Below are positions 35,330 to 42,892 of a stretch of 64,000 nt of DNA, in pieces. Made by a program: the position numbers and the translations under genes. A model generated the notes under the pieces. It had not been told where the DNA came from, did not search any database, and saw only the letters and a program-made list of their open reading frames with translations. Location of the stretch: positions 38,235-102,234 of the forward strand of contig NW_013657624.1 in NCBI RefSeq assembly GCF_000142905.1, given 5' to 3'. Numbering within the stretch: position 1 is the first letter of the stretch; each line of letters opens with the position of its first letter. This stretch comes from Thecamonas trahens ATCC 50062. Its lineage: Eukaryota > Protista > Apusomonadida.

Positions 35330-36460
35330 TCACTTGGGAACGTCATACTTGCACATTGGACAGTTGGAGACGCGCCGGAGCCACTCGTCGATGCATTGCG
35401 TGTGGAAGACGTGGAGGCATGGGAGCGTTTTGGCTGCTTGCCCGGCCACGAGCTCGGAGAGACAGACGACGCAGGTCAAGGTGTCACCACTGCTGGTCGG
35501 CGGCGCACTCTGGCCGACGACAAAGGTCGGCAGCGCGTCGATGGCCGCATCTGATGCCCCTCGCGGAACCGCTGGGCCCATCCGCTCCTCAAGCTCCATC
35601 ATCTCCTCGTACGACAGCTCACCGGCGCCGCCAAAGCCCGGCGGAAGCACAACCGCAGGCGTGCCGTCGTCACGGAGCCCGCGGATGCGGTTGAACGTCT
35701 GTGGAGTGATGACAAGCCGATCACCGGCCCGCCCCAGAGAGTTGGGCATCCTACTCAGCGGATCGGCCCTTCGCCGCCATCCAGCCACATCCACATCACC
35801 AAAGTCGTCGTCCGGCATCTCCCCCCCCATCTGCCGCAGCTGCCATGCCAACATGGCCGCCGTCTCGCTCCTCCAATCATCGACGACGTCGGAATCTTCC
35901 GAGCTGCTGCCGCCGCCCAGCGCGTCGCGCGCCAGCGCCCGCTCTGCTGCCTCGCGTGCCTCCTGCGCTCGCCGCCTTGACCGCCGCACCTGCTCCCGCC
36001 GGAATGCCTCCTCCTCCTCCTCCTGCAGAGCCCTCGCCAGTGCCTCATCCGACATCACATCAGCGTGCCGAGTCTCCGCCAAAGGCACTTCCGCTTTGTC
36101 CACCGTCTCATACACCGCAGCCCGCGCCGCCTCGCTAGCCGCCAGTGACGCCGCCAGCGATCGCATCAGAGCCTCGTTGCCGTCAATAGTCATCCGACTG
36201 TCACCCATCGTCCGCCCAGAGCTCTGTCTCATGCCTCGCCAACTATTCATCCCCGTCCCCGTCGCCGCCGTCGTCGTCGTCGCCGCCGCCGTCGTCGTCG
36301 TCGTCGCCGCCGTCGTTGTTGTCGTCGTCGTCGTCGTCCGTCTCGAGGCGTCGCCGCCGCGGCCAGCAAGCCCATCACCTGCGCCTGCTCCTCGTCCCTG
36401 TTGCTGGGCCAGGTACCGCTCCCGGGCCGCACGACGGACTTGGGCAAGCTGCTCGTCCAT
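35330..36460 (-). CDS. RING-H2 E3 ubiquitin ligase with UIM-like motif
   Basis: SDEALARALQEEE; LSYEEMMELEERMG; CVVC..LPCLHVFH..CIDEWL....CPMC. Confidence 0.9.
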   Translation of the reverse strand: MDEQLAQVRRAARERYLAQQQGRGAGAGDGLAGRGGDASRRTTTTTTTTTAATTTTTAAATTTTAATGTGMNSWRGMRQSSGRTMGDSRMTIDGNEALMRSLAASLAASEAARAAVYETVDKAEVPLAETRHADVMSDEALARALQEEEEEAFRREQVRRSRRRAQEAREAAERALARDALGGGSSSEDSDVVDDWRSETAAMLAWQLRQMGGEMPDDDFGDVDVAGWRRRADPLSRMPNSLGRAGDRLVITPQTFNRIRGLRDDGTPAVVLPPGFGGAGELSYEEMMELEERMGPAVPRGASDAAIDALPTFVVGQSAPPTSSGDTLTCVVCLSELVAGQAAKTLPCLHVFHTQCIDEWLRRVSNCPMCKYDVPK

Positions 36461-36685
36461 GCTCCTGGGGGAGGGGGGGGGGGGGGTTGGTGACGGGGGG
36501 GGGGTTCGTGGAGGAGGGGAAGGGCAGGAGAGTCAGCCCAGTCAAGTCGGGCAGGTGTGTGACGTGAAGGGGGCAGAGTGAGTGACAGGCATGGTCGACT
36601 CATGGCGTGTTATGGCACTTGGTCACATAGGACGGAGGGGAGGGAGGGGGGGGGGGAAGGGGGTGGGGTCGAGGGAGTTGACGAG

Positions 36686-38069
36686 TTAGATCGACTCCTG
36701 GAGGAGCTTGTGCATGTCCTCCAGGCGAGTGGAGAGCGAGAGGTCGAGGTACTTGTCGCCGATCTCAACAATGTAGCCGCCGAGGATGTCCTTGTCGACC
36801 TGGGTGGTGAGCTCAAGCGACTCGCCCTTGGCGAGGTACTTGGTCTCGAGCTCCTTCTTGAGCGCCGCCACCTCGTTGGACGACATCTCCTGGGCAAGGG
36901 TGACGGTGGCAATGACCTCACCACGCTCGGCGATCATCATGGAGCGGTAGGCGGCGATGATGACATCAGCATCAGCCAGGCGGTTCGACTGAGCAAGGAC
37001 GCCAAAGAACGCCTTGGTCACCTTGGACGCGTTCGAGAGCGCCGCATCGAGAACCTTGAGCTTCTCGTCACCCGACACAAACGGGTTCTTGAGGAAGGCC
37101 GCAAACTTGGCCGACGACTCGATGGCGCCGCCGATCGAGGCCAGGTCACCCTCAACCTGCGCGGTAGCCTTGGACGCCGCAGCAGCCCGGTAGAGCGCCG
37201 TGGCGTAACGCCCAGACACACCAAAGAGCTTCAGCGGAGCACCGCCCGAGGACGAAGCCGCGGCAGTAGCCGCATATGTGCGCTGTGACCAGAGTAACCG
37301 ACCAACACACCGACGAGCAAGCCAACCGAGTCAACAAAGCAAGCCAGACCAGGTAGCCGAGACAACGATAAAAGACAAAGATGGAGACAGAGAAGTAGAC
37401 CGAGATGTGGAGTGAGCGAGAGAGGGGAAGCCAGGCCAGCGAGACCATCACATCAATCCGCGTCCATCCAGCAGCAGCAGCAGCATCAGCAGCAGCAGCA
37501 GTAGCAGTTGCAAACAGCAGCAATAACAGTTGTATGCAGCGTATACAATGGTAGTGAGTGAGTATGGTGGTGGGGGTGGTCGGCTCCGGCTCCCGGGCTC
37601 CCGCTCCCTGGCTGTGGGCTCCGAGCTCGGGTCGGTCATTGAAAAATTGACGCTGTGCTGGCAACGCGACACAGCGACGGGGGATGGGCATAGGGGAAGC
37701 ACAAGACAAGCACATTGTAGACAGGTTGGCTAGGATTGTACACCAGTCTTTGTTCTCTGTAGTAGACATACTTGGGGCATCTCATATAGACTATACGTGG
37801 CGACAGAGCCTTGCCCAACCTGGCCATTCCCTCCCCCCCCTCGCCTCCCCGTCGAACCACCGCCGCCAACCCGCAGCGCATCCAAAAACTGAGCACACAG
37901 CTGGCCCGTTTGAACCCTATGGTACACACGCACACACACCGCCACACACACACCACACCACATCCCGCCCTTCTTCTCTTGTGGCAAGGATACAACGTTC
38001 ACAAGGGACAACACGTACAGTAGCAGTCAGAGTGGCAGCAGCCAGACGGGTCCGAGCAAGGCTAAACAT
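36686..38069 (-). CDS. ATP5PO: Mitochondrial ATP synthase subunit OSCP; intron 37283-38018
   Basis: Presequence exon MFSLARTRLAAATLTAT|RTYAA; PLKLFGVSGRYATALYRAA; VDKDILGGYIVEIGDKYLDLS. Confidence 0.93.
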
Positions 38070-38395
38070 AGTGGACAAGGCGTCGAGTGGTGTCCGAGGC
38101 CAAGTTTCGCCCGCTCGCTCACGGTGCCGGTCGCTGGCTCGCCTCCCCCCGCCCCCCCCTCGATTCGAATGTGACTTTTAGGTTTCGTTCGCTCGCCAAG
38201 CGCCCGCGCTCGCCGCGCCATCATCCATGCACACCACATAGTACGACATACATGGATAGCGGTAGAGATAGCAACACGTAGCGTGAGTATGGGTGTGGGT
38301 GGATGGCCATATGTGGTTCTAGCGACTCACCCGTGCATGATGCGGATGGCGGGACGACTGGCTTGGTTACACTCGTCGCGGATTGTCGTCTGTCA

Positions 38396-39039
38396 ATGGC
38401 CTTTCGTTCGCTTGTGGGACGGGTCTTCCCCTCCATGCTTCCTGCCAGCGCGGCTTCTGCCCACGTTGCACGCGACAGACTTCAGATCATCCTTGCCAAG
38501 TCGCGCATGGACGCATCGTCGTCACTGACAGAAGCTGTTGACATGGCCAAGATGCAGGAGGATCTCCTTGCCGTCGTCCGCGTACGTGCCCGCTGTCGCC
38601 AGCCCGTGATCACGACCGTGATCACCGCCCTGATCGCCACCCTGCAGGAAAAGGCCACCACGCCCTGCACCCCCTCCCCCTCCCCTTCCCCACCGCCAAG
38701 CCCAGGCCCTCCCACCATGGCCATGATACTCACTCTCTATGCCTCCCCTTGCCATCTTCAGAAGCATCTCAAGACCTCTTATGACGTCGCCACCGACGAC
38801 ATTGTGTGCAACAGTACGTTTTGGCGCGCAACTTTGGCTCGGCCGCCGCGGCCTACGCGCCATGGCTATGACCGGTGCCAACTCTGGAGAGGACGAGACA
38901 GAGTAAGAGAGCGGAAGGGGAGGAGAGGCGAGACGGGCAGTACTTACGGAGAATGATGGGGAATGTGGCGTGGGCGGGGGTAGTCCGTCGGGATGGCAGC
39001 CTCGAGGTGTTCGAGCTGCAGATTAACATGAACGCGTAA
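38396..39039 (+). CDS. minE: Mitochondrion-targeted cell-division topological specificity factor MinE (exons 38396-38581, 38762-38813, 38984-39039)
   Basis: Spliced product MAFRSLVGRVFPSMLPASAASAHVARDRLQIILAKSR..DMAKMQEDLLAVVRKHLK..DDIVCNIRRDGSLEVFELQINMNA*. It matches the MinE pattern SA..AK.RLQII.A..R..L..DILEV..KY....I.LELN. Both introns are GTACGT..AG and in phase. Confidence 0.88.
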
Positions 39040-39282
39040 CCTCTTGCCGGCAATGGCGCGGAAGGGTGGGGGCGGGAAGGAGGGCCTGCCGCATACCGTC
39101 TTGGGGCTCGGGGCTGAGCTGGCGTTTCTTGCTGGGCATGCTGGCGATGGTGACACAACTCGTGGCCATGGCCGTCATCGTGATGCTCAAGGATACGGCC
39201 AAGATCGCTAACACACGTGCACGAGCCGTGCCTCATCGCAGCCATACACACACACATACATCCTTCACTATAATCTGCTCTG

Positions 39283-42200
39283 CTAGCCAGTGTAGGAGTC
39301 GCTGTTCGAGTCGATGATCCGACTCGAGGAGGTGCTGACGCTGTTGCTGCCCTCGCTCTGGCTTGAGCCCACAAGCTCGGCGATCTGGGCCTGGCAGCTA
39401 CGGTCATCGCTTGCCGTCGACTTGCTGCTCGATCCGGCCATCATCGCCTCTAGGCTCTCCAGCTCCACATCCTGCGAGCGGGACAGCGGGACCGGGCGCA
39501 TAACCATGCGACGCGACCGCCGAGTCTTGCTCTGGTCATGGACCGCGAGGGAAGCGCGCGGGAGCGAGACCTCAGACACAAGGTCGTCGACTTGGTCATC
39601 GTTGCGCCACATATCGCCCTCAAACGAGCGGCCCATCCGGGATCGTGACTTTGACGATGCCACCGACTCGTCGATGCTCGACTTGGCGCTCCGTGTGTAC
39701 ATAGCCTTGGATGTGCAGGGGGCACCAGCAAGCGTCCGCGCTGATCGCGAGGTACCCGAGCAGCCTGGTGACATTGACATCGACAACGACACTGAGCCCG
39801 TGTCCGAGACTTTGCCCATCATCTCCCGAATCTGTCCGTCGACAAAGTTGCGGTTCATGACAGCGGGCGAGATTGCGAGCGAGAGTGACGATCGCCGCCG
39901 CTTGCCGTTGCTTGTTCGCGACCTCGACCTCGACCGCTCCAATGGCTCGAGCTCCATTGACTGGAGGTGTGCCGGATTGAGCGAGATCGGCCCGCCAGAC
40001 ACAACTCGCCCGTTGCGCCCCAGCGCACGGAGGCTCTTGAGCGTCGACGTCCTCTTCGATCGCTTCGACTTGCTCGCATTCGATCCCGTGCCGTCATCAT
40101 CTTGCAATGACCCCATGTCGGACAACTCGCGCGACCGCTGGCCGTGGGACGACACCGAAATCATTCCCGAGTTCTGCGGTGAGAGCCAGCCCCGCGATCG
40201 CCGCCGATCAAGCTCGCCCGAGTAGACCAAAGTCGACTCGTCTACGCTGATCGCTCCCAAATCAAATGCCACCGAGTTGTTCCTAAGCGCAAACTCGTTG
40301 CCGGTCCGCTCCGACAGAAACGTCTCACCGCCGGCCATCGACGAGCTCCACCTCAAGTCCGACTGCATCTCGGTCTCTCGACGAGATCGCTTTGATCGGA
40401 GCGAGCTGGCCGAGCCCATGTCCGGAAAGCCTTGCCCGTCCAACGAGCGTGATAAAAGCATGCCCGACGAGAGCTCCCACGGCTGCGGGAGAGGATCAAA
40501 CGTCCGCAAGGCCACGACCGAGCCCTGGCTCGACACCGAGTAGACATCAAAGTATGCAGCGCCGTCCGGTGGGCCCTTGGCGCATCCGACGTGCTCGATA
40601 AAGATGTGCGAAGGCAAGGTGGCCGGAAGAGTCTGACGCGTCTCGGCGGTCATCAGCACCTGGCCGGCAGCCGACGCCGACGCTACCGCATCTGCATGCG
40701 ACATGGCCGCCCCGGTATATGCCGCCCGCTGCGTTCGCGTGTCGTGCATAACCACCGGATTGCCGGCGTGGAGCCCGATGCGGACCCGCAGGCCACGCCA
40801 TAGCCACAGCGGGTAGCCGCGGGGTCCAGACATGGTCGCCGCCTCGGTCCGGCAGGTTGGATGCTCGAGCACGGCGTCTGGCCACTCTGCGTACAGCAGC
40901 TGGGTCTGGATCGCCAACGCGGCCTCGACGGCTCGCAGGGCACCCTTGGCGGGGAAGACAGCCACAAATGCATCGCCCTCGGTTCGCGCCACGTACCCGC
41001 CAAAGTCCTTGATGATGTGCGCCACAAGCTCGTTGTGCACATCGATGGCCTTCTCCATCGCCTCGGGAAGCTCCTCCCACAGCCGAGTCGAGCCGACCAC
41101 ATCGGTGATGAGGATCACAGCAAAGCCATTGGGAGCAGCATCTGCCGCCATCGCTGTATCCTCAGCTGCCCAGACCTCCTCGTCGCCAACAGCGTTTCGA
41201 CGTCGCAATCGAAGCGCCACATACAAGCAAAGGATGATGCTGGCACCCAGGCCGACAACAGCTGATGTTGCCATCACAGACTCGACCGGACGTCGGCGCT
41301 CACTGGATGGCGCGCTGCTCTCAGCGCACGATCCTATCGCGCTCCCTCCGCAAACCCCACAAGCATCCAGCTGCGCCCTTGATCCGCGCACAAAGTCGCA
41401 TCCAACGCAGCTGAGACCATCGCCGCCACACACACCGCACGCATCGAGCGTCGCGTTTCCGCCCCAGCACACCCCGCATGCATCACGGCCTGCATCGTGC
41501 CCGCCGCACAGCCCGCATCTGTCCATTGCCTGCCCGCCGCCGTAGCACACACCGCATGCATCCCGCGCTCGGCCGCCACCAAAACACTCTCCGCATGCAT
41601 CACGATGGCTGCCAGGCGTTCGGCCGGTGGTCCCACCGACGCACACGCCGCATCCGTCGACGTATGCCTCGCCACCGCACACCCCCGCGCAGTCGTGCAC
41701 CGCACCAAGACCATTGCACGCGGCAGGACACGTGCCCACGCCAGATGGCCCGCCACACGTTCCGCATCCGTCAAACACCTGCCCGCCGTCCGGCATCGGT
41801 AGGCCGTTGCAGCCAAGGCACGAGCTGCCGTCCCCGCCGCACACGCCGCAGACATCGGGTACTGCGTCCGAGTTGGGCACACCATCACAGCCGACACATT
41901 GGCGGCCATCGCCAAAGCACACACCGCAGACATCGACTGAGCTGTTGTTGCCCCAGCACACGCCGCACGAGTCGAGATCGGCGTTGCCCCCAAAGCACAC
42001 GCCGCAGGCATCGACATCCGAGTCGGCCACGTGCTCGGTTCCAGGCCCAGAGCATACGCCGCACGAGTCGGGGAGGCCATCGCCACCGCACACATCGCTG
42101 GACACGCCTTGTCTCGCACGAGAAGGCGTGTGAATGGAGTCAGCGGTCGCGAGCGAGACCACAACGTCCAGGGCTGCGATCTCGATCTCTGCCGGCGCGC

Positions 42201-42720
42201 TGCTCTCGTCCGTCCCGATCCGCACCACGACATCCAACTCGTCGCCAGCGACCTTTTGTGCGTCTGAGAGCAGTCGCACGAGCTCGAGACTGCGGATCGT
42301 GGCGCGCCGGTGGCCGGGCGCCCACACAAGTGGTAGACGGGCAGCTCCGGTGACAATCATCCCCGGGGCCGTGAGCTTGCCAAGAGGACGAAAGACTCCC
42401 ACATCTACGACAATGGTCTGGGGCACGAGGGGATCATGCCAGATGGTAGAGCTCGCCACAGCGATTGAGTTCGAGCGCGAGACCATCAGAGTTGCGGCGT
42501 GGATGACGATGGCCTGGCTGTGCGAGGCTGGTGGCAGGGTCAAGCCGATGTGGGGGAGGCCATCGATGATTGTTCTGTCTGAATGGGTGGCGACCAATGT
42601 GACAAGATGGAGACTGCCACGATCGTTGCCCGGCTTGCCAGCCAGGGCTAGGGCGGCGATGACGAACCAAGAGAGACATATAAACACCAGAGGCATCCGC
42701 CAAGGATACAATGGTTTCAT
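39283..42720 (-). CDS. Receptor-type class III nucleotidyl cyclase-like protein 1 (signal peptide, DxCGVCxG Cys repeats, TM, cyclase domain, Ser/Arg-rich tail)
   Basis: ILITDVVGSTRLWEE, TEGDAFVAVF, GLRVRIGLHAG. Confidence 0.88.
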   Translation of the reverse strand: MKPLYPWRMPLVFICLSWFVIAALALAGKPGNDRGSLHLVTLVATHSDRTIIDGLPHIGLTLPPASHSQAIVIHAATLMVSRSNSIAVASSTIWHDPLVPQTIVVDVGVFRPLGKLTAPGMIVTGAARLPLVWAPGHRRATIRSLELVRLLSDAQKVAGDELDVVVRIGTDESSAPAEIEIAALDVVVSLATADSIHTPSRARQGVSSDVCGGDGLPDSCGVCSGPGTEHVADSDVDACGVCFGGNADLDSCGVCWGNNSSVDVCGVCFGDGRQCVGCDGVPNSDAVPDVCGVCGGDGSSCLGCNGLPMPDGGQVFDGCGTCGGPSGVGTCPAACNGLGAVHDCAGVCGGEAYVDGCGVCVGGTTGRTPGSHRDACGECFGGGRARDACGVCYGGGQAMDRCGLCGGHDAGRDACGVCWGGNATLDACGVCGGDGLSCVGCDFVRGSRAQLDACGVCGGSAIGSCAESSAPSSERRRPVESVMATSAVVGLGASIILCLYVALRLRRRNAVGDEEVWAAEDTAMAADAAPNGFAVILITDVVGSTRLWEELPEAMEKAIDVHNELVAHIIKDFGGYVARTEGDAFVAVFPAKGALRAVEAALAIQTQLLYAEWPDAVLEHPTCRTEAATMSGPRGYPLWLWRGLRVRIGLHAGNPVVMHDTRTQRAAYTGAAMSHADAVASASAAGQVLMTAETRQTLPATLPSHIFIEHVGCAKGPPDGAAYFDVYSVSSQGSVVALRTFDPLPQPWELSSGMLLSRSLDGQGFPDMGSASSLRSKRSRRETEMQSDLRWSSSMAGGETFLSERTGNEFALRNNSVAFDLGAISVDESTLVYSGELDRRRSRGWLSPQNSGMISVSSHGQRSRELSDMGSLQDDDGTGSNASKSKRSKRTSTLKSLRALGRNGRVVSGGPISLNPAHLQSMELEPLERSRSRSRTSNGKRRRSSLSLAISPAVMNRNFVDGQIREMMGKVSDTGSVSLSMSMSPGCSGTSRSARTLAGAPCTSKAMYTRSAKSSIDESVASSKSRSRMGRSFEGDMWRNDDQVDDLVSEVSLPRASLAVHDQSKTRRSRRMVMRPVPLSRSQDVELESLEAMMAGSSSKSTASDDRSCQAQIAELVGSSQSEGSNSVSTSSSRIIDSNSDSYTG

Positions 42721-42892
42721 ACGGAAGAGAGGGGAGTTACCATGCCTCCTTCTGACGCTTGGCGTGGCTCACCGTGTGGCAATGGGTGCGGAGAAAAACA
42801 ACCTGCGGGCTGGGTGCGGGTGCGGGAAAGGGGTGGGTGTCCCGGTGGAATGCAGGTACATGTCAAGGACAAGGCAATGGAACCGAACAGCT

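What the first reader, a model, noticed from the sequence alone, without database searches (positions are those of the whole stretch)
38396..39039. Intron-split, mitochondrion-targeted MinE: a bacterial division-site selector in a non-photosynthetic eukaryote
Seen: three exons joined by two in-phase GTACGT..AG introns give ~97 aa with an Arg/Ser-rich presequence, the MinD-contact helix (SAHVARDRLQIILA), the MQEDLLAVVRKHL helix and the terminal strand LEVFELQIN. No single ORF shows it. Known: MinCDE with FtsZ positions bacterial division, and mitochondrial Min/FtsZ systems have been reported in several protist lineages, including apusomonads, but are lost in animals and fungi. Inference: a relic alphaproteobacterial Min oscillator governs mitochondrial fission in this organism.
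Basis: partly seen in the sequence, partly recalled or inferred. Interest (0 to 1): 0.78.

Follow-up and report, generated by a model that had tools for sequence, protein, structure and literature searches.

The report
Known mitochondrial-type MinE gene, apusomonad
This is a real, already annotated three-exon nuclear gene for the bacterial-type division protein MinE in a non-photosynthetic protist, and it likely helps place the division site inside the mitochondrion, as a system already described in several protist groups is thought to do.

Summary
Exons 38396-38581, 38762-38813 and 38984-39039 splice to 97 aa, identical to a public protein named MinE of Thecamonas trahens. It passes Pfam MinE (42.2 bits, cut-off 25). 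Intron 1 is joined in an RNA contig. Intron 2 rests on homology only. The protein groups with Andalucia 'mitochondrial MinE' and stramenopile MinEs (100/97.8) and keeps the MinD-contact helix (9 of 19 residues identical to E. coli). Three corrections. Exon 1 alone already passes Pfam. The N-terminus is not Arg/Ser-rich (2 Arg, 3 Ser in 20 residues) and sits where bacteria carry their membrane-binding helix. An alphaproteobacterial origin is neither shown nor rejected (p-AU 0.168). MinD, MinC and FtsZ in this genome, import and oscillation were not testable. Verdict: an already annotated member of the published mitochondrial FtsZ-MinCDE system. One open idea: the N-terminal helix may serve both as import signal and as membrane anchor.

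The parts
38396..38581 (+). minE exon 1 (codons 1-62): N-terminal helix, MinD-contact segment, first helix of the topological specificity domain
   Evidence: Pfam MinE 31.1 bits on its own; covered by an RNA contig from 38379
38396..38452 (+). N-terminal 19 residues: basic, acid-free, amphipathic; likely import signal, possibly also the membrane-binding helix
   Evidence: net +2 in the first 12, hydrophobic moment 0.46, 7 residues longer than E. coli; 12 of the first 14 identical to relative P0002
38453..38509 (+). MinD-contact segment (about residues 20-38; E. coli 13-31)
   Evidence: 9 of 19 identical to E. coli MinE from L121; helical in the model
38582..38761 (+). intron 1, 180 nt, phase 0, GTACGT..CAG, branch-like TACTCAC at 38727
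   Evidence: RNA joint 38581 to 38762 in 1 of 4 RNA runs; relative P0002 stops matching at the same codon
38762..38813 (+). minE exon 2
   Evidence: first 35 nt in the RNA contig; best-scoring model
38814..38983 (+). intron 2, 170 nt in the window (171 by three read sets), phase 1, GTACGT..TAG, branch-like TACTTAC at 38941
   Evidence: homology ranking and reading frame only; no RNA cover
38984..39039 (+). minE exon 3: last beta strand and stop codon
   Evidence: extends the Pfam match to position 67 of 68; strand 86-93 in the model

Best explanation
This is a nuclear, spliced gene for MinE whose product is likely imported into the mitochondrial matrix, where it would bind membrane-bound MinD, trigger its ATPase and so likely confine the FtsZ inhibitor MinC away from the future division site. 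Shown: the gene, intron 1, the family, the conserved contact helix, and the grouping with other protist MinEs. Inferred from orthology: import, and partners MinD, MinC and FtsZ encoded elsewhere in the genome. Inferred from E. coli: dimer formation, the latent-to-open switch and pole-to-pole oscillation. The gene most likely came with the mitochondrial endosymbiont, was kept since early eukaryotes and gained its introns in the nucleus.
For: Pfam over cut-off. Identical public record named MinE. RNA joint for intron 1. All 19 named eukaryotic rows, this one included, fall in one group of a 93-row tree (SH-aLRT 95), and 23 eukaryote-type rows get 100/97.8 in a 62-row tree. One member is named mitochondrial MinE of Andalucia, which also has MinC, MinD and two FtsZ (PMC7050145, passages and supplement rows). 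Contact segment 9 of 19 identical to E. coli. Best structural rows are MinE in both searches, though weak. The host is an apusomonad, a group with no plastid (recalled). The E. coli mechanism is from passages of PMC6803595.
Against: MinD, MinC and FtsZ were not shown in this genome (no whole genome; no tblastn hit for bacterial MinD or MinC queries in the 64 kb window). No targeting predictor was available, and the N-terminal charge and amphipathicity do not separate it from alphaproteobacterial MinEs. All three NCBIfam MinE models score under their cut-offs (52.5/58, 46.8/108, 40.3/49.3). Fold matches are not significant (E 0.12; Z 5.2). Intron 2 has no RNA support. The trees rest on 80-82 columns, and this protein was flagged as a long branch in the first.
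Confidence: 0.8

Rival explanations
1. Mitochondrial MinE that does not oscillate: it regulates MinD or FtsZ statically, or acts in a reduced system without MinC, while dynamin does the actual fission.
For: Under bacterial equivalog cut-offs. E. coli E28 and R29 are replaced and the loop after the contact helix is longer. No paper showing Min oscillation in mitochondria turned up in my listings.
Against: The core contact residues and the equivalents of E. coli D45 and V49 are kept (their roles are recalled). Andalucia and Stygiella keep all three Min proteins.
Confidence: 0.12
2. A separate, later horizontal transfer from a beta- or gamma-type bacterium (for example prey), domesticated with introns and working outside the mitochondrion or not at all.
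For: The nearest bacterial row to the eukaryotic group is P0009, in a cluster with Thermithiobacillus MinE (97/96). The best 80 genome hits are nearly all beta or gamma by record title, though the search pattern came from such sequences.
Against: It groups with jakobid and stramenopile MinEs, not among bacteria. A relative keeps the gene and the intron 1 position. It is transcribed and spliced.
Confidence: 0.05
3. Bacterial contamination, chance splicing or a decaying pseudogene.
For: Intron 1 is in frame and free of stops, and the intron 2 acceptor is atypical.
Against: Spliced RNA contig. One independent contig runs unbroken from the OSCP gene through minE. Flanking genes are OSCP, a RING protein and a nucleotide cyclase. 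The frame is intact and ranks first of 10,304.
Confidence: 0.02

Closest known systems
Thecamonas trahens MinE, KNC54311.1 / XP_013753772.1 (P0001)
   Same: Letter-for-letter the spliced product, already named cell division topological specificity factor MinE.
   Different: Nothing. The record gives no location or function test.
Mitochondrial FtsZ-MinCDE system of protists (Leger et al. 2015 PNAS, seen only as cited in PMC7050145, PMC4989108, PMC8321541, PMC5377515); Andalucia godoyi mitochondrial MinE AKB90673.1 (P0017)
   Same: Nuclear gene, same clade, basic amphipathic N-terminus longer than in bacteria.
   Different: The Andalucia gene has no introns and 145 aa with a long C-terminal tail; this one has two introns, 97 aa and no tail. 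Its leader is 19 residues against 25. Partners were not verified here.
E. coli and Neisseria MinE (PF03776; PDB 3r9j, 1ev0, 6u6r)
   Same: Contact segment 9 of 19 identical to E. coli; helix plus two strands in the C-terminal domain.
   Different: Stands alone rather than behind minD as in the bacterial loci; spliced; leader 7 residues longer; below NCBIfam equivalog cut-offs.

Membership tests
MinE (PF03776) | Profile score above the curated cut-off over the whole domain | tested here: met
   42.2 bits against 25, positions 1-67 of 68
MinE (PF03776) | NCBIfam bacterial equivalog cut-offs | tested here: not met
   52.5/58, 46.8/108 and 40.3/49.3; these models are built for bacterial genomes, and they were still the top three hits
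MinE (PF03776) | MinD-contact segment (E. coli 13-31) | tested here: met
   9 of 19 identical, including A18, R21, L22, Q23, I24, I25 and R30
MinE (PF03776) | Topological specificity domain fold | tested here: inconclusive
   Model pLDDT 73, pTM 0.42; top rows are MinE but weak: Foldseek E 0.12, VIA Z 5.2, rmsd 3.4 over 51 residues
MinE (PF03776) | N-terminal amphipathic membrane-targeting helix | tested here: inconclusive
   Basic amphipathic segment at that place; cannot be told from an import signal by sequence
MinE (PF03776) | Homodimer; stimulates MinD ATPase; forms patterns | not testable with these tools
   Needs biochemistry; no complex prediction was run
Protist mitochondrial FtsZ-MinCDE system | Nuclear-encoded eukaryotic gene | tested here: met
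   Spliced intron 1; eukaryote-type neighbours on contiguous DNA
Protist mitochondrial FtsZ-MinCDE system | Groups with known mitochondrial MinE | tested here: met
   no cyanobacterial or named plastid MinE was in the trees
Protist mitochondrial FtsZ-MinCDE system | Mitochondrial import | not testable with these tools
   No TargetP or MitoFates; composition only
Protist mitochondrial FtsZ-MinCDE system | MinD, MinC and FtsZ in the same genome | not testable with these tools
   No whole genome held; no MinD or MinC hit in the window; FtsZ not searched
Protist mitochondrial FtsZ-MinCDE system | Alphaproteobacterial (endosymbiont) ancestry | tested here: inconclusive
   Not sister to the 13 alpha-type rows; constraint not rejected, p-AU 0.168

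The most novel reading that the evidence does not exclude
Mitochondrial MinE has no disposable presequence: the bacterial membrane-binding helix itself became the import signal and stays on the mature protein, so one helix first drives import and then anchors a working Min oscillator on the inner membrane in a close relative of animals and fungi.
Probability: 0.3. Interest if true: 0.5.

Novelty: already known. Interest (0 to 1): 0.2.

Why it matters
As a discovery it adds little: the protein is annotated and the mitochondrial Min system is published. It has some use as material. The protein is small, has no C-terminal tail and comes from a lineage close to animals and fungi (recalled), which lack these genes (10.1101/2020.01.24.917146, passages). 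It would suit a test of whether mitochondrial Min proteins really form patterns, and of how a bacterial membrane helix can become an import signal.

Tried and rejected
Whole-genome search for MinD, MinC and FtsZ: no genome held. tblastn of 176 ORFs of 200 aa or more lying upstream of bacterial minE (72 with the MinD Walker A motif) against the window: no hit at E 0.01; this says nothing about the rest of the genome. Two metagenome scans for relatives' loci found none (594 and 595 pattern matches, 0 confirmed), so the synteny with OSCP and intron 2 could not be checked in relatives. No RNA contig covers intron 2 or exon 3 in 4 of 4 RNA runs; contigs show presence, not absence. Word-index homolog searches with the single protein returned only itself. 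Leger et al. 2015 is not held. 'Thecamonas' plus 'FtsZ' gave 2 papers: PMC5953543 has no FtsZ in its main text and PMC4202323 was seen as a listing only. Alternative intron 2 acceptors (38911, 38917, 38932) are open in the window but score lower, and once the extra base seen in 3 of 4 read sets is allowed for, 1 of 7 in-frame acceptors stays open. An upstream in-frame Met in the same ORF was rejected: it would add an acidic leader, and relative P0002 starts at the annotated Met. The branch-like heptamer is only weakly enriched (10 against 4.6 +/- 2.8) and is not counted as support. The Atlas hit (0.85, a mostly eukaryotic MinE cluster) is a lead only. F-actin capping protein hits in the PDB sequence search were treated as chance.

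Full report
Observation. The window holds the gene as described. Splicing 38396-38581, 38762-38813 and 38984-39039 gives 97 aa. Intron 1 is 180 nt and phase 0; intron 2 is 170 nt and phase 1; both start GTACGT, a hexamer seen 34 times in the window against 13.6 +/- 4.1 in 30 resamples. The product equals stored protein P0001, which NCBI, UniRef and EukProt list as MinE of Thecamonas trahens (KNC54311.1, XP_013753772.1), an apusomonad. The gene is therefore already annotated.

Splicing evidence. In 1 of 4 RNA runs laid, a 238-nt contig covers 38379-38581 and continues at 38762-38796 with no mismatch. None of 4 DNA or unlabelled runs shows a joint, and one contig runs unspliced from 36949 to 39300. 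No RNA contig covers intron 2. For it I ranked 10,304 distinct products of 10,602 GT-AG models against a profile of 28 homologs that left out this protein and its closest relative: the annotated model was first (96.5 bits; next 90.5; unspliced 54.1). Three of the 4 read sets show one more base in intron 2; with it, only 1 of 7 in-frame acceptors gives an open frame. A relative, P0002, matches residues 1-62 at 69% and then runs off into unrelated sequence at the intron 1 position.

Family. Pfam MinE scores 42.2 bits (cut-off 25) over 67 of 68 positions. The three NCBIfam MinE models are the top hits but all lie under their cut-offs. Against E. coli MinE (L121), the contact segment 13-31 is identical at 9 of 19 places, and D45, V49 and E76 have their counterparts. 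The review PMC6803595 (passages) defines residues 2-12 as the membrane-targeting helix, 13-31 as the MinD-contact helix and 32-88 as the dimerisation domain. The model is middling (pLDDT 73, pTM 0.42). Its best matches are MinE in both searches, but weakly (E 0.12; Z 5.2).

Kinship. A full profile search gave 30 proteins at E 0.001 or better. I looked up 20 of the 29 others; named ones include Andalucia 'mitochondrial MinE', diatoms, a raphidophyte, a brown alga and a Thermithiobacillus cluster. A eukaryote-weighted alignment added many oomycetes. In a 93-row quick tree all 19 named eukaryotic rows and 14 unnamed rows formed one group (SH-aLRT 95); one named row (Plasmopara) was dropped for missing my motif, and this protein was flagged as a long branch. 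Limits: about 80 columns; 9 unnamed rows were labelled eukaryotic and 2 alpha after the first tree; alpha is 11 plasmid-borne Hyphomicrobiales and Rhodobacterales; beta and gamma rows were partly chosen by likeness to the query; no cyanobacteria. So membership in the protist MinE clade is supported, and the alphaproteobacterial label is open.

The N-terminus. It has 2 Arg, 3 Ser and no acidic residue in 20, with the first acid at 27. The stretch before the contact helix is 19 residues, against 10-13 in 11 alpha rows, 12-15 in 13 of 15 beta or gamma rows measured, and 16-59 (median 25) in 19 named eukaryotic rows. Alpha N-termini are just as basic and acid-free (0 of 11 with an acid in the first 12), so composition cannot tell an import signal from the membrane helix. 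The first 14 residues are 12 of 14 identical to P0002, about as conserved as the contact helix, while the linkers on either side differ. That fits a helix kept on the mature protein better than a fast-changing cleaved presequence (my inference, one comparison only). The Andalucia ortholog has only a moderate targeting score (P 57; supplement row and methods passage of PMC7050145).

Mechanism. Most likely the protein is imported, dimerises, opens on meeting MinD on the inner membrane, displaces MinC and triggers ATP hydrolysis, leaving a zone where FtsZ can assemble. Only the gene, intron 1, the family and the clade are shown. Import and partners are inferred from orthology; dimer, switch and oscillation are carried over from E. 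coli. MinD, MinC and FtsZ could not be sought genome-wide; bacterial MinD and MinC queries found nothing in the window.

What is known. PMC7050145 (passages, supplement rows; one picture-only supplement file was not searchable) and PMC4989108 (passages) describe FtsZ with MinC, MinD and MinE in jakobids and cite Leger et al. 2015. PMC8321541, PMC5377515, PMC12699882, PMC7314023 and 10.1101/2020.01.24.917146 (passages) treat the system as a known, patchily kept ancestral trait; PMC13650779 (passages) covers plants and red algae only. Leger et al. itself is not held. My searches (listings) showed no study of Min oscillation in mitochondria. Earlier notes of this scan report similar MinE, MinD and FtsZ genes in other genomes; I did not check them.

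Verdict. Real and correctly identified, but already known: interest 0.2. The boldest reading left open is that the bacterial membrane helix doubles as an uncleaved import signal (probability about 0.3).

Noticed in passing
window 36686-38069, minus strand: The ATP synthase OSCP gene (Pfam OSCP 142 bits) lies head to head with minE, start codons 326 nt apart. A 736-nt GTACGT..CAG intron (38018-37283) separates a short first exon that encodes an Arg- and Thr-rich, acid-free leader; spliced length 215 aa. One RNA contig joins it, with only 27 nt on the short side. Two likely mitochondrial genes may share a promoter; conservation in relatives could not be checked.
   Followed up: partly
window 38243, 38975, 37423, 39067 (also 38241, 38289): Independent read sets differ from the window by single bases at these non-coding places; the insertions after 38243 and 38975 appear in 3 of 4 runs, so they are likely assembly slips.
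   Followed up: partly
window 38582-38956, plus strand: Intron 1 is a multiple of three and has no stop, so retention would give a read-through product of 186 aa with a Pro-rich insert and no final strand. No RNA support for it was seen.
   Followed up: partly
window 39283-42768, minus strand: A 1161-codon open frame with many Cys-Gly repeats, a likely membrane span and an adenylate/guanylate cyclase domain (E 6e-12); it ends about 240 nt from the minE stop.
   Followed up: no
window 35330-36532, minus strand: A 400-codon frame ending in a RING-H2 finger (E 2e-13).
   Followed up: no
runs X2, X9, X12, X13, X14, X18: Contigs nearly identical to parts of this locus occur in estuary, marine, seawater and subsurface metagenomes and metatranscriptomes, so this organism or a very close strain is found in the wild.
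   Followed up: partly
P0016, P0021, P0004, P0003: Unnamed MinE homologs with long N- or C-terminal extensions fall in the eukaryote-type group; they may come from unsampled protist lineages.
   Followed up: no
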